Virus record (IMG/VR): IMGVR_UViG_2545824644_000014
Strand: one strand, 5' to 3'
From: a virus
Taxonomy: Duplodnaviria; Heunggongvirae; Uroviricota; Caudoviricetes
Length of the DNA stretch: 22,055 bases
Shown here piece after piece: positions 6,275-17,147 of this stretch. The notes beneath the pieces were generated by a model. The model searched no databases. It was not told the DNA's origin and saw only the letters and a list, made by a program, of their open reading frames with translations. Positions within the stretch are counted from its first letter, which is position 1. Each line of letters starts with the position of its first letter. The position numbers were made by a program, and so were the translations under genes.

Positions 6275-9097
6275 ATGACGGCAGAGTACATCAGGGACTG
6301 GCAACAACCGCGCCACGCAGTGGGGCGTGAAGGAACGGGGATCCCCGCTCCTGAATCCGCGCTTTCCTCCTGGCTGGATGCCTACCGGGTAGAGAACGAG
6401 CGCCGCCAGGAAATGGCTGATGCGGCGTTCTCCGCCACGCCGCTGGGCAACCTGATTAATAAAAGCCTGGACGCACAGGAAAAACAGGACAAAACCATCA
6501 CACTGGCAGGAGACGCCAGAAAACAGGCACGCGGCGCGGTGGATGAAGCCATGGCCTCGCTGCGCCTGCTGCCGTCCTATCTGCGCGATCCGCTTATTCG
6601 CCACCTCTCCTTCCTGCGCAAAAAACAGGAAGCCGATCGCCGGAAAGGCAAAAAGAGCTGGCAGGCGGAACGCTATGCACACGGAACCCTGCGCAAAATA
6701 TTCGAACGTCTGGATAGCACTGACGGACGCTGGCTGACACCGGGTTATCGCTCCCTTGCCGGACGCGAACACCTGGACGATTTGCTTTACCTGCCGCAGC
6801 TCAACAAACACCAGATACAGACGCTGGCCACCATGACGGCGGCGATGTTCAGCAGCACCTTCGAAAAACTCTGCGATGGCTTTGGCGCGACCGATGGCGA
6901 GCTGACCATGGATGTAACCCTGAAGGCGTATCAGATGCTGGCCCGCATGGCGTTACACCTGCACGCCATGCCTCCACATTATGACGCACTGACAACAGAC
7001 AAAGACCGGAGGAACGAACCGGACACGGAGCTGCTGCCGGGCGCAATCCTTCGCCTGACCTGTGCGGAATGGTGGAAACGCAAACTGTGGCTGTTACGTT
7101 GCGAGTGGAGAGAAGAACAACTCCGCGCCGCCTGTCTGGTTTCCAGAAAAACATCACCCTATCTGAGCCAGGACGCGTTAAGCGAGTTTCGCGCACAGCG
7201 CGAGAAAACACGCGATTTCCTGAAAAGTTTCATGCTGGAAAATGAAGACGGGTTCACGATTGATCTCGAGACAGTGTATTACGCGGGAGTAAGTAACCCG
7301 GTTCACCGTAAGGCAGAAATGATGGCCACCATGAAGGGACTGGAACTTCTGGCCGAAGCCCGTGGCGACAAAGCGGTGTTTCTGACTGTCACCTGCCCGT
7401 CAAAATACCACGCCACAACGGAGAACGGTCATCCGAATCCCAAATGGAACGGGGCCACAATGCGCGACTCCAGCGATTACCTGGTTAACACGTTTTTTGC
7501 GGCGGTCCGCAAAAAACTGAACCGCGACGGCCTGCGCTGGTATGGCATCCGCACGGTGGAGCCTCATCATGACGGCACCGTGCACTGGCATATGATGGTC
7601 TTTGCACATCCGGAAGAAATCGACACCATTGTGTCCCATACCCGCGATATTGCCATTCAGGAAGACCGCCACGAGCTGGGCGATGACATAACTCCGCGTT
7701 TTAAGGCGGAGTACGTCGACGGCTCAAAAGGCACGCCAACCAGCTACATCGCCACCTACATCGGAAAGAACCTGGACAGCCGCGCCGTGGATGGCATCGA
7801 CCCGAAAACGGGCAAGCCACGCGTGGACCACGAAACCGGAAAATCAATGGCCGAGAGCGTGGAGCGCGCCATCGGCTGGGCGCGCCTTCACCGGGTCCGT
7901 CAGTTCCAGTTCTTTGGCATCCCCTCCCGTCAGGTATGGCGTGAACTGCGCCGCCTTGCCAGCCAGATGGCACGCAATCCGGAAGGCCCGCAACGGCTGA
8001 AAGATGATGCAATGGATGCGGTACTCGCTGCCGCCGATGCCGGGTGTTTTGCCACCTACATTAAAAAACAGGGTGGCGTGCTTGTTCCACGCAAGGACTA
8101 CCTGATTCGCACCGCCTACGACCTCGCAGATGAGCTGAACGATTACGGCGAACAGAGCGTACAGATTTACGGGATCTGGTCACCACTCATCGGGGAATCC
8201 TCCCGTGTGTGCACGCATCCGGATAACTGGAAGCTGGTAAGACGTAAACCGGAAGCGGAAGACAGCGCCCGCGAAAATGGTTTTGACCTTCAGGGCGGCC
8301 CTGCCGCCCCTTGGACTCGTGGCAATAACTGTCCCCGTGTACAGGAAACGGACAACAACGGGACAGAACAGCCGGAAGAACGGCCAGCACCGTGGCCGCA
8401 GCTCCCTGACGGCGTTGAAGTGAACGAATGGATGCGCTCACTGAAACGGCACGAACGCCGGGCGCTGATGCGTTCGCTTCGTGACAAACAGGCAAAAAAC
8501 AGCAGTGATGAAATGCAGAGCTGGACACAGAGCCGCAAACAGCAGCGGCCTTTGCCTGATAACCACGAATTACTCGCTAAAGAATGGCGGGAGTCTGCTG
8601 AATCTCTCGGCCTGCATATCGGTGAACAACAGATGCAGTACCTGTTACGGGGCGGCAGTCTGTACGTTGACGGCAGCATCATTGCACCGCAGGGATTTGA
8701 AATTGTACGCAAACCGGATACCCGCCCGGACAGCCGAATCACGCAGCTCTGGCAGCGCCTGAGCCGTAATCATGGCGTAAGCAGCACAGAGATCCGCCAT
8801 AACCCGGTCGCCAGCTATCTGGAACAACTGGGGGCATCAGACCCCGAAGCCGCCGCACGTCTGGCATCCACACTTCAGCAGGACCAGAACACCATGAAAA
8901 CACCCGTTACCGTGCTTTCTGACATGCTGCGCGCCATCCGCGACGCAGAGCACGCACAGAGAATCAGTGAAACCACTGAACGCGCCCACCGCAAAGCAGA
9001 CCTGCTGCGGGGTAGCCTGACCAGTGGAAACAAAAAACAGACAGAAACGGGACTCACGAATCCCGTAAATGAGCAAAAAACGCTCAGCGATATATGA
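6275..9097 (+). CDS. A: Phage replication initiation endonuclease (P2 gpA-like rolling-circle Rep), 940 aa
   Basis: HUH-type metal motif VHWHMMVF (codons near 7566-7589). Paired catalytic tyrosines in SYIATYIGK (TAC codons at 7745-7747 and 7757-7759), as in the Y-x3-Y motif of phiX174/P2 A-type initiators. Position is between early genes and the variable locus. Confidence 0.9.
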   Translation: MTAEYIRDWQQPRHAVGREGTGIPAPESALSSWLDAYRVENERRQEMADAAFSATPLGNLINKSLDAQEKQDKTITLAGDARKQARGAVDEAMASLRLLPSYLRDPLIRHLSFLRKKQEADRRKGKKSWQAERYAHGTLRKIFERLDSTDGRWLTPGYRSLAGREHLDDLLYLPQLNKHQIQTLATMTAAMFSSTFEKLCDGFGATDGELTMDVTLKAYQMLARMALHLHAMPPHYDALTTDKDRRNEPDTELLPGAILRLTCAEWWKRKLWLLRCEWREEQLRAACLVSRKTSPYLSQDALSEFRAQREKTRDFLKSFMLENEDGFTIDLETVYYAGVSNPVHRKAEMMATMKGLELLAEARGDKAVFLTVTCPSKYHATTENGHPNPKWNGATMRDSSDYLVNTFFAAVRKKLNRDGLRWYGIRTVEPHHDGTVHWHMMVFAHPEEIDTIVSHTRDIAIQEDRHELGDDITPRFKAEYVDGSKGTPTSYIATYIGKNLDSRAVDGIDPKTGKPRVDHETGKSMAESVERAIGWARLHRVRQFQFFGIPSRQVWRELRRLASQMARNPEGPQRLKDDAMDAVLAAADAGCFATYIKKQGGVLVPRKDYLIRTAYDLADELNDYGEQSVQIYGIWSPLIGESSRVCTHPDNWKLVRRKPEAEDSARENGFDLQGGPAAPWTRGNNCPRVQETDNNGTEQPEERPAPWPQLPDGVEVNEWMRSLKRHERRALMRSLRDKQAKNSSDEMQSWTQSRKQQRPLPDNHELLAKEWRESAESLGLHIGEQQMQYLLRGGSLYVDGSIIAPQGFEIVRKPDTRPDSRITQLWQRLSRNHGVSSTEIRHNPVASYLEQLGASDPEAAARLASTLQQDQNTMKTPVTVLSDMLRAIRDAEHAQRISETTERAHRKADLLRGSLTSGNKKQTETGLTNPVNEQKTLSDI

Positions 9098-9173: not shown

Positions 9174-10133
9174 ATGAAAATTTGTATCGACGACGGCTCC
9201 ACCAACATCAAGCTGGCATGGACTGAGAACGGCGAACGCCGCAACGCCATCAGCCCGAACAGCTTCAAGTCTGAATGGTCTGCGCCGTTCGGTGGCACGC
9301 AGCCCGCGAACTACATGCTTGATGGCGTGCGCTATGGTTTTGATCCGGTCAGCGATCGCTTTGTCCAGACGACCGACACGCAATACCAGTACAGCGATGT
9401 GAATGTCATTGCCATTCATCACGCGCTGGTCAAATCAGGCATCACGCCACAGGAGGTGGATGTGGTTGTCACCCTGCCACTGAGCGAGTATTTCGACACA
9501 AACGCACAGCCGGACATGGCCAACATCAACCGCAAAAAAGCGAACGTTATGCGCCCGGTGGAGTACCAGAACGGCGAAGCATTCACTATCCGTAACGTGC
9601 GGGTTATGCCTGAATCCATTCCGGCTGGCTTTAAGGCACTGGCTGACATGAGTCCTTTTGAATCCCTGCTGATTGTGGATTTGGGCGGAACCACGCTGGA
9701 TGTGGCAAAGGTTCAGGGGCAACTGGCAGGTATCAGCCAGGTGTTTTGCGATCCACACGTAGGCGTTTCTCTGATGGCCGATGCCGTACTGTCGGTGATG
9801 GCCACTAACGGTATGCGCACCAGTCACCACATCGCCAATACCATTATCGAACATCGCCATGATGAAGCCTGGCTGCGCCAGCACATCCACAATGACGCGC
9901 ATTACGCCAGCCTGATGGCGGTTATTCGTGAAAAGGAAGAAACACTGAAACAACGCGTGATCCGCGCGCTGGCGGTTTTTTCGGGTTACGGGCGGGTGAT
10001 GGTTGTCGGTGGAGGGGCGGAGATTGTGGCACCCGCTATCCGCGAAGCCTGCGGAGTTAATGCGACTTTCATCGCGGACGGGGTGCCACAGTTTGCTCTG
10101 GTTAATGGGCTGTACGCAATGGACAAGGAGTAA
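9174..10133 (+). CDS. parM: Actin-like ATPase of the ParM/StbA family (type II partition NTPase homologue), 319 aa
   Basis: N-terminus MKICIDDGSTNIKLAW closely matches R1 ParM as recalled (MLVFIDDGSTNIKLQW). Other recalled blocks also align: YSDVNV..HHAL, MPESIPAG, DLGGTTLD, GVSL, VGGGAE, LVNG. Confidence 0.85.
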   Translation: MKICIDDGSTNIKLAWTENGERRNAISPNSFKSEWSAPFGGTQPANYMLDGVRYGFDPVSDRFVQTTDTQYQYSDVNVIAIHHALVKSGITPQEVDVVVTLPLSEYFDTNAQPDMANINRKKANVMRPVEYQNGEAFTIRNVRVMPESIPAGFKALADMSPFESLLIVDLGGTTLDVAKVQGQLAGISQVFCDPHVGVSLMADAVLSVMATNGMRTSHHIANTIIEHRHDEAWLRQHIHNDAHYASLMAVIREKEETLKQRVIRALAVFSGYGRVMVVGGGAEIVAPAIREACGVNATFIADGVPQFALVNGLYAMDKE

Positions 10134-10137
10134 ACCA

Positions 10138-10446
10138 ATGACGACACCAACCAGACGGATAAGTTTCTATCTGAAGCCCGCCGCCGTCAAGAACGAAGGC
10201 GAAGCATGCGCCTGGCTGGACAGCCTTACACCAGAAGCCCGCAAAAGCGGCCAACGCGTGGCTTTTCTGGCCGGGCTGGCACTTCTGAAAATGAATCCGG
10301 CAGAGGCTTACCGACTGGCTGCATGGGCTGACGATGAGTTGGCCGTGGTACAAAACAGAGTAGAACAGAACGCGCCACAACCAGTACCAACCACACAGAT
10401 AACCAGCCAGATGGCCGGGAATATCCGGGCGTTATTTCCCGAATAA
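10138..10446 (+). CDS. parR: ParR/StbB-like centromere-binding adaptor, 103 aa
   Basis: Starts 4 nt after the parM stop with RBS AGGAG. N-terminal RRISFYLKP...AFLAGLALL and the C-terminal IRALFPE parallel R1 ParR as recalled (RTIAFKLNP...LTAGLAL...LRSLFPKE). Confidence 0.65.
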   Translation: MTTPTRRISFYLKPAAVKNEGEACAWLDSLTPEARKSGQRVAFLAGLALLKMNPAEAYRLAAWADDELAVVQNRVEQNAPQPVPTTQITSQMAGNIRALFPE

Positions 10447-10448
10447 CA

Positions 10449-10480
10449 CAACATCAGGGCGCATCCGCCCTGATGACTTT
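10449..10480 (+). terminator. Hairpin after parR; weak terminator or operator
   Basis: ATCAGGGCG-CATC-CGCCCTGAT, a 9-bp perfect stem directly after the parR stop. The following T-tract is weak. Confidence 0.3.
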
Positions 10481-10544
10481 AATCCGGGAACATAAACAAG
10501 GGGGACACAATGCAACACATTGACAGAGAAAAAGGAAAAAAAGC

Positions 10545-10952
10545 ATGAACAGAAAACAGAAACAAGAGTTGAAATACTTCTTACGTAAAGAAATTGCCAG
10601 GCTTGAAGATGCAGAGTCACAATCATCAGAAATTCCGTTCGGAATGGATATCAACGACGCCCGTATGCTTCAGGCATACCGTATAGCTCAGGCTGCACTA
10701 CAGACAAAACCGTTAAATAACATACATGAAAAGTATGATTATTTTACGGATACCGCTTGCTTGCTGACATCTGAAGAACAAAAGATAGCCCAACTTTTAG
10801 GCGACGCATGGAACCTGTATTTAACATTGCCAGTTGAGCATCCAATGGGTAGAGATGAATTTTGCCGGGCAATTCATCATTGCCAAAATATGGTGTTGGC
10901 ACGCCCGGCCATCAGGGCGTTGGCCAGGAAGGGGCAAGGCTATAAAAGATAA
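10545..10952 (+). CDS. Orphan hypothetical protein, 135 aa, in the variable locus
   Basis: Own RBS (AAAGGA), AT-rich 5' half, and its own intrinsic terminator. No family recognised. Confidence 0.55.
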   Translation: MNRKQKQELKYFLRKEIARLEDAESQSSEIPFGMDINDARMLQAYRIAQAALQTKPLNNIHEKYDYFTDTACLLTSEEQKIAQLLGDAWNLYLTLPVEHPMGRDEFCRAIHHCQNMVLARPAIRALARKGQGYKR

Positions 10953-10955
10953 GTA

Positions 10956-10983
10956 AAACGCCCTCCTCCAGGGCGTTTATTTC
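10956..10983 (+). terminator. Rho-independent terminator
   Basis: AAACGCCCT-CCTCC-AGGGCGTTT, a 9-bp stem, followed by ATTTC. Confidence 0.6.
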
Positions 10984-10985
10984 AA

Positions 10986-11012
10986 TGCACAATAGTGCAC
11001 AAATTTGCACAA
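10986..11012. repeat. Three direct TGCACAA repeats at 10-bp spacing, followed by a T-tract
   Basis: TGCACAA at 10986-10992, 10996-11002 and 11006-11012. The helical spacing suggests a protein-binding array. Confidence 0.4.
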
Positions 11013-11436
11013 TTTTTTTGAACGACTTTTTGCCCTTCCGGCCCGCGTGGCGGCTGGATCCGTCAGGGAACCGTGCGTGCACAAAAAAACGCGCTTTTTC
11101 TGCGCACAGGTGACGGGGGAACAGCCCGCGTTTCAGGGGGTAAATAGCATCCCCTGAACGATGTCGCAGCGACACAACAGAATGGCTGTATTTCTCACGC
11201 TGAGCGTGAAAAAGACGTGAGGGCTTTTGATTTGATGGGGTGGCAGATAAGGCCGTCAAAATCGCACTGAGGCGGCGAGAACATGCAGTCAGCGCGATGG
11301 GATTGCGTAAGAGCCTGACCGTCGATGATGGCAATAAGCTGGAAGGCGTCGTGAAATTATCTGATTGATACAGGAGCTGGAGAGTCGGGGCATAAATTTT
11401 TTATGCCCCGGCGAAGCAGCAGACAAGCGAAGCGCG

Positions 11437-12483
11437 TCAGGATGTGGGCTGGGTGTCTAACAGTGCGTAAGGGTTAAAGCGGATCACCTCTTCGCCAAGC
11501 CAGTCATTGATGTGCTTCATGGCCTCCATGACGGGCATCAGCTCGTTAATTGCGTAAACCCGCGCGGCCTTCTCCACATCACCAAACGCACTTTTTTCGC
11601 CCGGCATCGCCCCCATCAGTTGCGGCGGAACGCGGTGCGCAGCCAGCACATCATCACGGGATGCCGCCTTAACATTCATGAACTCATCTTTTGCGGTGAT
11701 CTGCTGGAACGGCAAAATTTGCACCCCCTCTTTGCCCCCGTTGGGCGCATGAATGAGCACGTTTTTAAACGCACCACCACCACGTGCCCCCTGTAGCGTT
11801 TCTTTCAGGGAGTCCATGCTTTCGCGGTTTACCTGCGCTGCACCGATGTAGATGATGCACCCGGCGTGGGATCCGTTGTCGTAGTACAGTTTTCTGAACA
11901 TGTCCGCCGAATGAGAAAGGCTGGCCGAGAGTAATGCGCCAAGATATTCCGGCATGCCGTAGATTTCCTGGTTAATATCCGGATTCATCAGGTGGCACAC
12001 TTTGCCAGGGCGAAACTGGAACGCGTCCTTGCCATCCTGCACATACCACCATGATTCAAGATCGCTTCCGCGTCGCATGTATTTCGCCAGGGCGTGCCGT
12101 AATTTAAGCGGTTCGCCGAGCATATTGCTTCGAAGCTCAAGGAATGCGTTACCGAACACAAACCAGTCCAGCGCCAGCGCCGAGAAATCCTGCCGGGAAA
12201 GCAGCGGGTGCGGGATGTAGCAACCGAGTAATACATTGCGCTTAAAGTAAAGCGCAGACTGATGCCAGGACGTTTGCCGGGCAGCTCTTGCCAGGCCGTA
12301 CCAGTCCACCGGGGTTTCATACCACCGCCCGTTATCAGCACAGTACATATTATCCAGCAGGTCATGCCCGGTCAGGCGATAAGGCCCATCAAATGTGAAT
12401 GCACTGAGCGACGATTCTTTCCTCAGCGCATCAGCGAGATCAATGCGTGAACTCATGCGCACTTTTTTATTTTTTCTGCTCAT
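11437..12483 (-). CDS. Q: Portal protein (P2 gpQ-like), 348 aa
   Basis: Size, orientation and position right after the non-coding cos-containing region, with its start overlapping the stop of the terminase ATPase gene. Confidence 0.85.
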   Translation of the reverse strand: MSRKNKKVRMSSRIDLADALRKESSLSAFTFDGPYRLTGHDLLDNMYCADNGRWYETPVDWYGLARAARQTSWHQSALYFKRNVLLGCYIPHPLLSRQDFSALALDWFVFGNAFLELRSNMLGEPLKLRHALAKYMRRGSDLESWWYVQDGKDAFQFRPGKVCHLMNPDINQEIYGMPEYLGALLSASLSHSADMFRKLYYDNGSHAGCIIYIGAAQVNRESMDSLKETLQGARGGGAFKNVLIHAPNGGKEGVQILPFQQITAKDEFMNVKAASRDDVLAAHRVPPQLMGAMPGEKSAFGDVEKAARVYAINELMPVMEAMKHINDWLGEEVIRFNPYALLDTQPTS

Positions 12484-14234
12484 CAGAACTCCATAACCGT
12501 GAAACGCTCGTTTTCTCCTTCGCCGCCAATCGGTTCGTTAATGACAGCAAGCATGGTTGCCCACGCAAGGTCGCCGTGGCTGATCCCCCTCGCGCGGTCC
12601 GTTTCGTAAGTGATAAAGCCGCCCGGTGTTTTCACCTTACGCACGGCGTTAAAGGCTGCGACCAGCTCGCGTTCGGCGCGATCGTATTCCCACCGCCCGG
12701 CGCGCATTATTTGCAGCATTTTCAGTACCAGCGACCGTTTTGATGACAGCGTGAAGGTGTACGGAATAGCTGCAGGGAAAAACCGTTTCACTATCTGATA
12801 AACAGCCTCCCCGTTCCCGCCCGTCACATCAATGCCGATGTGTTCCACGTTGTAGCGACACGTGAACTCTTCAATGACTCTGGCCTGTTCTTCAAACTCC
12901 AGCCCCTGAACGCGTCGCGTCTCCACCGTTCGAAAACGGCCACCAGGAACAGCCGGAGGAACCACCACGGACACAGCGCCGCTGTCGCCGTTGCCACTGC
13001 TGCCGTTTGCGTCATACCCAATCCATACCGGACGATTCCCCATCGGGCGGGGAGCAAAAGGTTTCCAGTCTTTCCAGTCGTCGTATCCGTCAACACCACA
13101 GCCAATCAGGATATTCAGGTTAAATGCCGATTCCCCTTCGCGGACAAACTCACACATATAGAGATTGAGGAACTCGTCTTCGGTGTTTTCATCACGAATT
13201 TCATCAATATCGGTGTGTTTCCAGCCGTGATTAACCACATCTTCCAGCGTGACAATTTGCCGCCACGTCCGGTCAGGGCAGATAAGCCCGTTATGCAGCG
13301 TTTTCCAGTCCACAGAAAAACGCTGGCGTTTATGCGTGGCCTTTTTCTCGTTCCAGCGGTCGCCGTTCCAGTAGGCGTATGCCTCGTGCGTTTCGGTGGA
13401 TGGCGTGGAGAAGTAGGTGCGCCGCAGTCCGCTGAGGGTTGCCATAGCGCCAGCCACCTTGCGCAGTTCAGCAAAGCGACTGACCCAGAAGAATTCATCA
13501 AAATAAAAATTGCCCGTATAGGACTGTGCCGACGCAGCAGAAGTGCCGAGAAAATGCAGCTCTGCGCCGTTGGAGAGGATGATTTTATCGCCCCCTTTCA
13601 GCTCCACATCAACTTCAGCCGCGGCCTTCTGAATAATGCTTTTAAACTGGAACGCCTGACGACGCGACGCAGACAAAAAAATCTGGTTACGCTGGTAAGG
13701 TTGCGCCACATCGTCACGCAGCGCCATCAGCAGAGCTTCCTGTGCAAAATACCAGGTCGCCCCAATCTGTCGGGATTTCAGGATCATCCTGTTACGTATC
13801 CCGGCTTCCCTGCAAAGGGTCAGGGAGTCAAACCAGCCCCGCTGATGCCACTCCAGCCTGCTGATGATTTTTTCCCGCAGTGCGGCAATCTGTTCCGGCG
13901 TGAAATGATTTTTGAGTTTTTTCGCCCGGCCTTTCTTTCCTGCGGCCATCACATCCGGCTGGCCATCATGCAGCTTTTTAAGCTGCCGGGTCAGCAGGTC
14001 TATTTCCTTAAAGTCACCGCCTGTTTTATTCTGTTTTTCAGTAAGCTGGATGAGGCGCGCATCGATGGACTGCGTGACACGCTGCACAGGTGGCGTTTCA
14101 TCCCACTGGTCGCGTTTTTTCCACGCATAAATCGTGTTCGGGTTTATTCCCATCAGACGTGATATTTCTGCGGGCGGATAACCCTGCCAGTAAAGTTGCC
14201 GCGCACGCTGGCGCACAAAAGCGTCCTGAATCAT
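12483..14234 (-). CDS. P: Terminase large (ATPase) subunit, P2 gpP-like, 583 aa
   Basis: Large ORF with an N-terminal HTH-like segment (YPPAEISRLMGINPNTIYAWKKR), as in P2-type terminase ATPases. Paired with Q and divergent from the O-N-M-L operon. Confidence 0.85.
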   Translation of the reverse strand: MIQDAFVRQRARQLYWQGYPPAEISRLMGINPNTIYAWKKRDQWDETPPVQRVTQSIDARLIQLTEKQNKTGGDFKEIDLLTRQLKKLHDGQPDVMAAGKKGRAKKLKNHFTPEQIAALREKIISRLEWHQRGWFDSLTLCREAGIRNRMILKSRQIGATWYFAQEALLMALRDDVAQPYQRNQIFLSASRRQAFQFKSIIQKAAAEVDVELKGGDKIILSNGAELHFLGTSAASAQSYTGNFYFDEFFWVSRFAELRKVAGAMATLSGLRRTYFSTPSTETHEAYAYWNGDRWNEKKATHKRQRFSVDWKTLHNGLICPDRTWRQIVTLEDVVNHGWKHTDIDEIRDENTEDEFLNLYMCEFVREGESAFNLNILIGCGVDGYDDWKDWKPFAPRPMGNRPVWIGYDANGSSGNGDSGAVSVVVPPAVPGGRFRTVETRRVQGLEFEEQARVIEEFTCRYNVEHIGIDVTGGNGEAVYQIVKRFFPAAIPYTFTLSSKRSLVLKMLQIMRAGRWEYDRAERELVAAFNAVRKVKTPGGFITYETDRARGISHGDLAWATMLAVINEPIGGEGENERFTVMEF

Positions 14235-16346: not shown

Positions 16347-17147
16347 ATGATTACTCCTGCACAACAACACTGGCAGAACGTGATGGCACAGCGCGCAGGC
16401 CGGGCGAATGAAGGCGTGGACCACGCCGCGCGTACCGCGCATGAAGAGGTGCTGTATCGTCTGCGTCTGGCACAGGCCCGGCTTAAGGGCGTACAGGCCA
16501 GAAGCGCGAAAGCCGCCATCAAAAAAGAGTTGTTGCCGGATTTTTCCGGCTGGATTGAGGGAACGCTGGAGGCTGACGGCGGGCAGCAGGATGAAGTGAT
16601 TGCCACGCTGATGGTGTGGGCGATTGACTGCGGCGATCTTCCGCTTGCGTTGCGTATTGGTGCGTATGTGGTCCGTCATAACCTCATTATGCCGGATAAC
16701 TTTGGCCGTACTGCTGCCACGGTACTGACCGAAGAAATCTGCAACCCGGTACTGACGCAGGCCGGGACGGATGCTGACGCGGATTTGTCCGCCTTTATCG
16801 AACCACTGGACACCCTCCGGGAGATTGTCACAGACCAGGACATGCCGGACGAAGTGCGCGCCAAATTATGCAAGGCGTGCGCCTTTGCCCGTCGTGGTCT
16901 GACCGATGCAGACAACATGGCCTTATCACTGAAGCTGCTGCGCGAAGCGATGCACCTGAACCCGAACGCAGGTGTGAAACGCGAGATTGCAACCCTTTCC
17001 CGCGCCCTGAAAAAAGCCGATTCCGCAGCCGCACCAGAAGACGCCAGCACACCGCAGGCGCAGGACGAAAGCAGCAAAAGTAAAAAGACAACGCGGAAGC
17101 CTGCAACACGAAAAACCACCGCGACGCAGAAGGCGAAGCGCGGTTAA
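16347..17147 (+). CDS. M: Terminase small (endonuclease) subunit, P2 gpM-like, 266 aa
   Basis: Position after N and a basic, low-complexity C-terminal tail (KKTTRKPATRKTTATQKAKRG). Synteny with P2 O-N-M-L. Confidence 0.8.
   Translation: MITPAQQHWQNVMAQRAGRANEGVDHAARTAHEEVLYRLRLAQARLKGVQARSAKAAIKKELLPDFSGWIEGTLEADGGQQDEVIATLMVWAIDCGDLPLALRIGAYVVRHNLIMPDNFGRTAATVLTEEICNPVLTQAGTDADADLSAFIEPLDTLREIVTDQDMPDEVRAKLCKACAFARRGLTDADNMALSLKLLREAMHLNPNAGVKREIATLSRALKKADSAAAPEDASTPQAQDESSKSKKTTRKPATRKTTATQKAKRG

What the first reader, a model, noticed from the sequence alone, without database searches (positions are those of the whole stretch)
10986..11436. Phased TGCACAA repeats and hairpins in the non-coding region expected to contain cos
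Three TGCACAA copies at exact 10-bp spacing (10986-11012) are followed by a T-tract. An A-tract/CGCG/T-tract element lies near 11085-11101. There is a hairpin TTCAGGGG…CCCCTGAA at about 11141-11169 and another, CGGGGCAT…ATGCCCCG, at about 11385-11409 just downstream of the portal gene. By synteny the cohesive-end site should lie here. Phased repeats are typical of binding arrays for terminase small subunit or host bending proteins, but this array also sits at the edge of the cargo island and could be a recombination or regulatory site for cargo exchange.
Basis: partly seen in the sequence, partly recalled or inferred. Interest (0 to 1): 0.4.

Follow-up and report, generated by a model that had tools for sequence, protein, structure and literature searches.

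The report
Packaging (cos) site of P2-like prophage
The phased TGCACAA repeats are the outer part of the DNA-packaging (cos) signal of a P88-type, P2-like prophage. It has the same four-box layout as the cos sites of phages P2, 186 and P4, so it is an ordinary feature, though this version of it appears not to have been described.

Summary
Chance does not explain the triple (0 of 300 simulated windows).

The window is a P88-like (Xuanwuvirus, Peduoviridae) prophage. The repeats belong to a ~160-bp module (10986-11145) that ends in a G-rich core, GGTGACGGGGGAACAGCCC (11109-11127). This core matches the 19-nt cohesive end of P2 at 12 of 19 positions.

- P2, 186, P4, PSP3 and Ralstonia phage RSA1 carry TGCAT boxes at about -120/-129, -111/-110, -101/-100 and -29 from their cos ends. 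Here the TGCAC boxes lie at -123/-113/-103/-31, or -121/-111/-101/-29 depending on where the nick is placed.
- In 108 distinct related sequences the three boxes are always present. The distance from the third box to the proximal box is 72 bp in 106 of them.
- Similarity to relatives begins exactly at the first box; everything to its left is variable cargo.
- A satellite element found in 53 E. coli genomes shares only 10986-11145 with this phage at high DNA identity.

Best reading: a cosB-like array of terminase recognition boxes. A dedicated cargo-recombination site is not needed to explain the data. The hairpins are incidental or terminator-like. No virion ends or protein binding were tested.

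The parts
10956..10978 (+). GC-rich hairpin (AAACGCCCT/AGGGCGTTT) ending the cargo genes. It lies outside the conserved module and is the last piece of variable DNA.
   Evidence: -10 kcal/mol, z -6.8. It is absent from most relatives, whose left flanks differ.
10986..11012 (+). Distal array: three TGCACAA boxes (10986, 10996, 11006) at 10-bp phase. It forms the outer edge of the cos module.
   Evidence: The GCACAA positions are 93% identical pairwise among 25 divergent relatives, against 28% just to the left. The array is present in all 108 distinct core-containing sequences and in the satellite L010. P2, 186, P4, PSP3 and RSA1 carry TGCAT boxes at about the same distances from the nick.
11013..11031 (+). 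T7 and T5 tracts after the array. They are conserved in this lineage only and may cause an intrinsic bend.
   Evidence: T in 19-23 of 25 sequences at each position of the T7 tract. Absent from P2, 186 and P4.
11032..11066 (.). Spacer whose sequence varies but whose length is fixed.
   Evidence: Pairwise identity is 0.52, yet the distance from the third box to the proximal box is 72 bp in 106 of 108 sequences.
11078..11089 (+). Proximal box TGCACAAAAAAA. It corresponds to TGCATTAAAA, which opens the 55-bp P2/P4 cos core.
   Evidence: TGCAC is invariant in 25 of 25 relatives and the A-run is nearly so. In P2, 186, P4, PSP3 and RSA1 the TGCAT box lies at -29. The P4-P2 similarity starts exactly there.
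11090..11106 (.). Short dyad CGCGC-N7-GCGCA between the proximal box and the nick.
   Evidence: Weak on its own here (-4.1 kcal/mol, z -0.6). The left arm varies among lineages and some lineages have almost no stem. P2 and P4 have CCGCCC...GGGCGG at the same place.
11109..11127 (+). Predicted cosN, the 19-nt 5' cohesive end GGTGACGGGGGAACAGCCC. The position is uncertain by about 2 nt and the ends have not been mapped.
   Evidence: It matches P2's GGCGAGGCGGGGAAAGCAC at 12 of 19 positions without gaps. Intermediate sequences L254, L266, L267 and L268 combine TGCACAA boxes with the core GGCGAGGCGGGGGAGCAAGC. Two phage records deposited under isolate names carry small deletions exactly here.
11128..11145 (+). 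Conserved right flank of the core (CGCGTTTCAGGGGGTAAA). The stretch shared with the satellite ends here.
   Evidence: satellite match 10986-11145.
11132..11158 (.). Hairpin TTCAGGGG/CCCCTGAA. The left arm belongs to the conserved flank. The right arm drifts, so the hairpin is probably incidental.
   Evidence: Common variants break one or two pairs without compensating changes, and the satellite lacks the right arm.
11252..11277 (.). Second conserved island (consensus CAGAATGGCGCTSAKGCG), found in phages but not in the satellite. Function unknown.
   Evidence: Pairwise identity is 0.62 against 0.37 around it. No consensus structure was found.
11386..11410 (-). Strong hairpin 27 bp beyond the portal stop codon. 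By position it corresponds to terminators tQ of P2 and tW of 186, but it has no T-run.
   Evidence: The terminator scan did not call it. P2 tQ and 186 tW are annotated.
11437..14234 (-). Portal gene Q (11437-12483) and large terminase gene P (12483-14234). gpP has an N-terminal helix-turn-helix at residues 6-63.
   Evidence: Pfam PF04860 for the portal; PF06056, PF03237 and PF17289 for gpP, plus HTH_23 at E 4e-7. gpP is 44% identical to P2 gpP.
16347..17147 (+). Small terminase gene M.
   Evidence: Pfam PF05944 at E 6e-37. It is 36% identical to P2 gpM.

Best explanation
The stretch 10986-11145 is the cos (cohesive-end packaging) module of a P88-type, P2-like prophage.

**Parts**
- Three distal TGCACAA boxes, one helical turn apart.
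- A spacer of fixed length.
- A fourth TGCACAA box fused to an A-run.
- A short dyad.
- The G-rich cleavage core.

**Proposed mechanism (inferred, not shown)**
- Phage terminase reads the four boxes.
- The 72-bp spacer is bent or looped so that the distal and proximal boxes are held together.
- This places the nuclease on the core, which is nicked about 19 nt apart to give GGTGACGGGGGAACAGCCC ends.
- The box sequence (TGCACAA here, TGCAT in P2/186/P4, TGCAG-type in phiCTX) would set which terminase packages which DNA. A satellite that carries the module can then be packaged by P88-type helpers.

**Why the array marks the cargo boundary**
The array is the first base pair under selection next to the known cos-adjacent cargo hotspot.
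For: **Context**
- The order replication gene A, cargo, non-coding DNA, then portal Q and terminase P on the opposite strand matches P2.
- The closest phage records are P88 and other Xuanwuvirus members.

**Same architecture as mapped cos sites**
- TGCA boxes lie at -123, -111, -101, -29 in P2; -124, -111, -101, -29 in 186 and P4; -120, -111, -101, -29 in PSP3; and -129, -110, -100, -29 in RSA1.
- In the window they lie at -121, -111, -101, -29 measured from 11107.

**The core is homologous**
- It matches the P2 cohesive end at 12 of 19 positions.
- Intermediate sequences combine TGCACAA boxes with a P2-like GGCGAGGCGGGGG core.

**The array is linked to the core**
- A scan for the core alone returned 120 viral loci. 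All 108 distinct sequences have the three boxes.
- The spacing is 72 bp in 106 of 108, although the spacer itself is only 52% identical.
- Portal identity among these loci runs from 68 to 100% and gpA identity from 30 to 98%, so several genera are covered.
- Serratia and Symbiopectobacterium prophages have the module too.

**Satellite**
- An element with a toprim primase, an integrase, an Ogr/Delta protein and its own P2-family capsid gene shares only 10986-11145 with the window at high DNA identity (80% over 161 nt). Two weak matches in coding regions (69-70%) are the only others.
- 53 E. coli genomes carry it.
- This mirrors P4 and P2, whose only shared DNA is cos (PMC9122126).

**P2-type elements behave the same way**
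- Many E. coli matches to the 186 module run from -129/-124 to +26/+34.
- P4 and 186 align from -129 to +26.

**Candidate reader proteins vary with box type**
- The gpP recognition helix reads NT(I/V)Y(A/S)WKKRD in all TGCACAA-type phages.
- It reads PTVQSWKQRD or VTVHSWKRRD in TGCAT types, and KTLHSWKDRD in phiCTX.

**Hint at the ends**
- Two records with isolate names, Chuche and P88_4B11, lack 11118-11124 and 11125-11129 respectively. More than 100 other sequences are intact there.
Against: - No virion ends were mapped, and no deposited relative starts at the predicted site.
- Nothing shows which protein binds the boxes, or that any does. gpP, gpM and the boxes all change together along the phylogeny, so the match between helix and box could be shared ancestry alone.
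- The published minimal P2/P4 cos is usually quoted as a 55-bp core (PMC5694545, PMC9594776). That core includes the proximal box but not the distal array. I could not read the original deletion study to see whether the distal boxes were needed.
- P2's own distal boxes are spaced 12 and 10 bp apart, not 10 and 10.
- The deletions in the two phage records could be real variants rather than assembly artefacts.
- This window has a private G-to-A change 3 nt before the predicted nick (1 of 108 sequences). This copy might therefore be impaired.
Confidence: 0.72

Rival explanations
1. The boxes are bound by a host nucleoid or bending protein rather than by terminase. They would serve only to shape the DNA at cos.
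For: The box positions and the 72-bp spacing are fixed, and T-tracts follow the array. This fits an architectural role. Lambda cos uses host IHF (own knowledge).
Against: Phages of the same host, E. coli, use different box sequences: TGCAT in P2, 186 and P4, TGCACAA here. That points to a phage-encoded reader. No IHF consensus lies between the boxes.
Confidence: 0.12
2. The array is a dedicated recombination site that drives exchange of the neighbouring cargo genes.
For: The cargo boundary falls exactly at the first box. There are 50 distinct left-flank types among 89 loci. How this hotspot recombines is an open question (PMC9122126, PMC13586616).
Against: In P4 the same array lies between psu and cos, whereas the variable cargo is on the other side of cos. 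In phiCTX and RSA1 the cargo also lies on the far side. No recombinase gene is linked to the array. A sharp boundary is expected at the edge of any selected element.
Confidence: 0.07
3. The array is a centromere (parC) or operator for the ParM/ParR-like cargo genes at 9174-10446.
For: ParM domains (PF06406, PF21523) and a Plasmid_stab_B protein are encoded just upstream. Such centromeres are arrays of short direct repeats (own knowledge).
Against: 40 of 89 related loci have the array but no ParM. The satellite has the array, and P2, 186 and P4 have the equivalent TGCAT boxes, without these genes. The array lies downstream of an unrelated ORF and a hairpin.
Confidence: 0.03
4. The repeats are a replication-origin iteron set or a promoter element.
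For: Other phages carry unrelated 10-bp-phased GCACAA arrays that look like iterons. In P2 the boxes lie 44-70 bp upstream of the old transcript starts.
Against: The satellite has a different replication gene but the same array. Here the cargo is transcribed towards the array, not from it. No promoter-like site was found there.
Confidence: 0.04

Closest known systems
cos site of phages P2, 186 and satellite P4 (55-bp conserved core; Ziermann and Calendar 1990, as cited in PMC5694545 and PMC9594776)
   Same: - The same genomic position, downstream of the portal gene.
- The same order of parts: TGCA box with A-run, dyad, then a G-rich 19-nt core.
- The same distances of the four TGCA boxes from the nick.
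- It is shared with a satellite.
   Different: - The box is TGCACAA rather than TGCAT.
- The core matches P2's at only 12 of 19 positions.
- The terminase proteins are 36-44% identical to P2's.
- T-tracts follow the array.
- The core lies about 310 bp from the portal stop codon, against about 170 bp in P2.
- The ends have not been mapped.
cosB of phage lambda (repeated R boxes bound by the small terminase subunit, with an IHF site between them; own knowledge, partly PMC7617512)
   Same: Several copies of one short motif lie beside the nicking site: one close and the others about 100 bp away, separated by DNA that is probably bent.
   Different: The proteins are unrelated. No IHF consensus is present. 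All boxes are direct repeats on one side of the nick. P2-family large terminase carries its own helix-turn-helix, so the reading subunit may differ.
Repeats R3-R6 and the IHF site annotated around cos of Pseudomonas phage phiCTX (record NC_003278)
   Same: It is a P2-like phage whose record already marks repeats flanking cos. Its boxes (GCAGAAA/TGCAG) lie near -27, -36, -82 and -126.
   Different: The box sequence and the spacing differ, and an IHF site is annotated about 300 bp away.

Membership tests
P2-family (Peduoviridae) cos site | Lies in non-coding DNA between the replication/cargo region and the 3' end of the portal gene, with gpP and gpM terminase genes nearby | tested here: met
P2-family (Peduoviridae) cos site | G-rich core homologous to the 19-nt cohesive end GGCGAGGCGGGGAAAGCAC | tested here: met
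   12 of 19 positions match without gaps at 11109-11127. Intermediates L254 and L266-L268 carry GGCGAGGCGGGGG next to TGCACAA boxes.
P2-family (Peduoviridae) cos site | TGCA box with A-run about 29 bp before the nick (start of the 55-bp core), and three further boxes at about -101, -111 and -121 | tested here: met
P2-family (Peduoviridae) cos site | 5'-protruding cohesive ends generated at this site in virions | not testable with these tools
   No related record starts at the site. The only indirect hint is the small deletions in two phage records with isolate names.
P2-family (Peduoviridae) cos site | It is the main stretch shared with satellites that use the phage's capsids | tested here: met
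   Satellite L010 matches the window at 10986-11145 (80%). Otherwise there are only two weak matches in coding regions (69-70%). 53 genomes carry the satellite.
lambda-type cosB | Several copies of one motif beside the nicking site | tested here: met
lambda-type cosB | IHF consensus between the boxes | tested here: not met
   No match to WATCAANNNNTTR (up to 1 mismatch) in 10986-11110
lambda-type cosB | Boxes bound by the small terminase subunit | not testable with these tools
   No solved structure of gpM or of the gpP N-terminus exists. Only the match between gpP helix and box type is available.
ParR centromere (parC) | Co-occurs with parM/parR | tested here: not met
   40 of 89 loci have the array without ParM, and the satellite lacks it.
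Intrinsic terminator (hairpin 11386-11410) | GC-rich stem followed by a T-run | tested here: not met
   The stem is strong, but there is no T-run on either strand and the scan did not call it.

The most novel reading that the evidence does not exclude
P2-like phages in general may use a four-box cos signal: three phased distal boxes and one proximal box held 72 bp apart. The box sequence (TGCAT, TGCACAA or TGCAG-type) would act as the address label that decides which helper packages which satellite. On this reading, the capsid-encoding satellite family seen here is a separate hijacker lineage tuned to P88-type helpers.
Probability: 0.45. Interest if true: 0.55.

Novelty: new member of a known kind. 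Interest (0 to 1): 0.38.

Why it matters
- **Annotation.** It places cos for a prophage type whose cos module is found in about a fifth of complete E. coli genomes (1135 of 5426, a count that includes satellite copies). No deposited record annotates or starts at that cos.
- **Engineering.** It defines a ~160-bp candidate packaging module for building cosmids or transducing particles for this phage type.
- **Cargo hotspot.** It explains why the cargo hotspot ends where it does.
- **Specificity.** It gives a testable rule for helper-satellite specificity, namely the box sequence.
- **Limits.** None of this overturns current understanding. It extends the P2/P4 picture to a sister lineage.

Tried and rejected
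- **Two candidate cos sites picked by eye.** These were 11271-11290 (GGCGGCGAGAACATGCAGT) and 11044-11063 (GCGTGGCGGCTGGATCCGT). I rejected both. The first lies in a phage-only island that the satellite lacks. The second lies in the poorly conserved spacer.
- **Start of record LR595891.** It corresponds to window 11031. It is not an end, because the array continues across it in relatives.
- **Species-genome scan.** The 15-base core pattern gave mostly chance hits in GC-rich genomes. Only L064 and L077, and possibly L073, were useful.
- **Array pattern alone.** It also finds unrelated 10-bp repeats in other phages, so it is not specific by itself.
- **No results.** No IHF site, no Rfam family and no promoter were found.
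- **Structures not conserved.** The dyad next to the nick and the 11132-11158 hairpin are not conserved as structures. The conserved island at 11252-11277 has no consensus fold.
- **No solved structures.** gpM and the gpP N-terminus have no solved relatives.
- **Literature.** The original P2/P4 cos deletion paper and a guessed PMC id for the P2 review were not available. A full-text search for the core sequence found nothing relevant.

Full report
**What is in the sequence.** TGCACAA occurs exactly at 10986, 10996 and 11006. The word itself is not enriched in the window (7 copies against 5.4 expected). The phased triple is another matter. It is the only complex 7-mer repeated three times at any period from 8 to 12 in the window, and none arose in 300 Markov simulations.

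The other features are also real:
- The A-tract/CGCG/T-tract lies at 11083-11099.
- The first hairpin lies at 11132-11139/11151-11158.
- The second hairpin lies at 11386-11396/11400-11410.
- A further hairpin at 10956-10978 closes the cargo genes.
- The interval has no convincing ORF and no Rfam family.

**Context.** The window is a P2-like prophage. Its genes run in this order: integrase, replication gene A (6275-9097), cargo (9174-10952), non-coding DNA, portal Q (11437-12483, minus strand), large terminase P (12483-14234, minus strand), scaffold, capsid and small terminase M (16347-17147). The closest phage records are P88 and other Xuanwuvirus members, at 92-96% identity over the interval. 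In P2 the cohesive ends lie between the cargo genes old/tin and the end of Q. This locus is a known cargo hotspot next to cos (PMC9122126).

**Locating cos.** The mapped cos regions of P2, 186 and P4 read TGCATTAAAAC, then a GC dyad, then the 19-nt end GGCG(A/T)GGCGGGGAAAGCA(C/T), then GCGCGC. The window has the same order of parts at 11078-11131: TGCACAAAAAAA, CGCGC-N7-GCGCA, CA, GGTGACGGGGGAACAGCCC, GCG. Without gaps, 11109-11127 matches the P2 end at 12 of 19 positions.

Intermediate sequences from viral contigs (L254, L266, L267, L268) join TGCACAA boxes to the core GCGCGCA-GGCGAGGCGGGGGAGCAAGC. Its first 12 nt are identical to P2's. This ties the two types together and places the predicted top-strand nick between 11108 and 11109, uncertain by about 2 nt.

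Two phage records deposited under isolate names, Chuche and P88_4B11, lack 11118-11124 and 11125-11129 respectively. More than 100 other sequences are intact there. That is what imprecise joining of cohesive ends during assembly would give, but it is only a hint. No deposited relative starts at the site.

**The array is part of the cos module.** Five lines of evidence support this.

1. *Same geometry in mapped phages.* TGCAT boxes lie at -123, -111, -101, -29 in P2; -124, -111, -101, -29 in 186 and P4; -120, -111, -101, -29 in PSP3; and -129, -110, -100, -29 in the Ralstonia phage RSA1. Measured from 11107, the window's TGCAC boxes lie at -121, -111, -101, -29. phiCTX has GCAGAAA/TGCAG boxes, and its record already annotates repeats around cos.
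2. *Linkage to the core.* A scan of viral contigs for the core alone gave 120 loci.
   - All 108 distinct sequences carry the three boxes.
   - The third box is 72 bp from the proximal box in 106 of them and 71 bp in the other two.
   - The spacer between them is only 52% identical among 25 divergent representatives.
   - These loci span portal identities of 68-100% and gpA identities of 30-98%.
   - Serratia and Symbiopectobacterium prophages also have the module.
3. *A sharp edge.* Mean pairwise identity is 0.28 just left of the first box and 0.93 in the boxes. Several phage records start to match the window at exactly 10986. Among 89 loci there are 50 different left-flank types.
4. *A satellite.*
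   - An E. coli element encodes a toprim primase, a tyrosine integrase, an Ogr/Delta zinc-finger protein and a P2-family capsid protein (36% identical to this phage's capsid).
   - No terminase or portal gene is annotated in the stretch examined.
   - At high DNA identity it shares only 10986-11145 with the window, 80% over 161 nt.
   - 53 complete E. coli genomes carry it. About 400 other records match it only over that module.
5. *P2-type elements behave alike.* Many E. coli matches to the 186 module begin at -129/-124 and end at +26/+34. P4 aligns with 186 from -129 to +26. P4 aligns with P2 only over the published 55 bp, -29 to +26, which begins exactly at the proximal box.

**How it probably works (inferred).** Four copies of one motif are involved: three of them one helical turn apart, and the fourth held 72 bp away across variable DNA. 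This pattern is what a sequence-specific protein that gathers distal and proximal sites would select for.

Two candidates exist.
- **gpP**, the large terminase. It has an N-terminal helix-turn-helix (PF06056; HTH_23 at E 4e-7). Its presumed recognition helix reads NT(I/V)Y(A/S)WKKRD in every TGCACAA-type phage. It reads PTVQSWKQRD or VTVHSWKRRD in TGCAT types, and KTLHSWKDRD in phiCTX.
- **gpM**, the small terminase (PF05944, 36% identical to P2 gpM).

Both proteins change along the same phylogeny, so I cannot separate them. Neither has a solved relative. No IHF consensus lies between the boxes. T-tracts after the array, conserved only in this lineage, may supply bending. The comparison with lambda cosB rests on my own knowledge of that system.

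**The hairpins.**
- The dyad next to the nick is weak here. Its left arm varies among lineages and some have almost no stem.
- In the 11132-11158 hairpin the left arm is constant and belongs to the conserved right flank of the core. The right arm drifts without compensation and is absent from the satellite, so the structure is probably incidental.
- The 11386-11410 hairpin is strong and sits where P2 tQ and 186 tW sit. It has no T-run and was not called as a terminator.

**Rivals.**
- *Host bending protein.* This is the most serious rival, but it does not explain lineage-specific boxes within one host.
- *Dedicated cargo-recombination site.* It is unnecessary. In P4, phiCTX and RSA1 the variable genes lie on the opposite side of cos from the array.
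- *ParR centromere.* 40 of 89 loci with the array lack ParM, and the satellite lacks it too.
- *Origin or promoter.* The satellite's different replication gene, the direction of the cargo genes and the promoter scan all argue against this.

**Comparison with what is known, and novelty.** This is a member of the P2-family cos sites. Every defining feature I could test is met; physical ends could not be tested. The P88-type core and box sequences are not annotated in any record I retrieved. A full-text search for the core found nothing relevant.

The accessible literature speaks of a 55-bp core (PMC5694545, PMC9594776). I could not read the original deletion study, so I cannot say whether the distal boxes were already recognised in P2. 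I therefore rate this as a new member of a known kind, of modest interest. The family-wide four-box geometry and the box-type specificity idea are the parts worth testing.

Noticed in passing
L010:1-9600 (E. coli mip270_05, NZ_CM132658.1 4414305-4423900): A satellite-like element next to hpt. It encodes an Icd-like protein, a toprim primase, an integrase, an Ogr/Delta protein, an unknown 236-aa protein and its own P2-family major capsid protein (36% identical to the helper's gpN). No terminase or portal gene is annotated in the stretch examined. It carries the P88-type cos module, and 53 of 5426 complete E. coli genomes hold it. A P4-style satellite with its own capsid gene is unusual.
   Followed up: partly
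window 9174-10446: ParM (PF06406, PF21523) and a Plasmid_stab_B (ParR-like) protein are encoded in an integrating P2-like prophage. ParM is present in 49 of 89 related loci, so it is semi-conserved rather than random cargo. I did not look for a centromere.
   Followed up: partly
window 11252-11277: A second conserved island lies about 145-170 bp right of the predicted nick (consensus CAGAATGGCGCTSAKGCG). It is present in divergent phages but not in the satellite. It has no consensus fold and no conserved reading frame. Its function is unknown.
   Followed up: partly
window 11106 and 11070: This prophage has two private substitutions at otherwise conserved positions. One is G to A, 3 nt before the predicted nick (1 of 108 sequences). 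The other is T to A, which destroys a GATC present 7 nt upstream of the proximal box in 100 of 108 sequences. No complete E. coli genome matches this 75-nt stretch exactly; the best match is 97.3%.
   Followed up: partly
L298 (phage Chuche) and L003 (P88_4B11), aligned to window 11118-11129: Two deposited phage genomes have 7-nt and 5-nt deletions inside the predicted cohesive end. These are probably assembly artefacts at cos and may need correcting in the records.
   Followed up: partly
L254, L266, L267, L268 (IMG/VR contigs); Klebsiella phage 3LV2017 about 10072-10235: A third cos type combines TGCACAA boxes with a P2-like core, GGCGAGGCGGGGGAGCAAGC. Klebsiella phages of the 3LV2017 group match this region at 78-79%. 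I did not read their box and core sequences.
   Followed up: partly
L004 3143-3286 and 3306-3434 (P88 record); L010 5816-6088; L298 81-347: Several records annotate short hypothetical proteins across the cos module. Given the conservation pattern, these are probably not genes.
   Followed up: no
L293 (HP1, last 220 nt) and L073 (Brevundimonas MAG): HP1 has three CACGGAAA boxes at -109, -45 and -15 from its right end. That is a different motif and spacing. A Brevundimonas contig has three TGCAC boxes directly before GCTCAGGTGACGGGGG. I did not check whether that contig is a P2-like cos.
   Followed up: no
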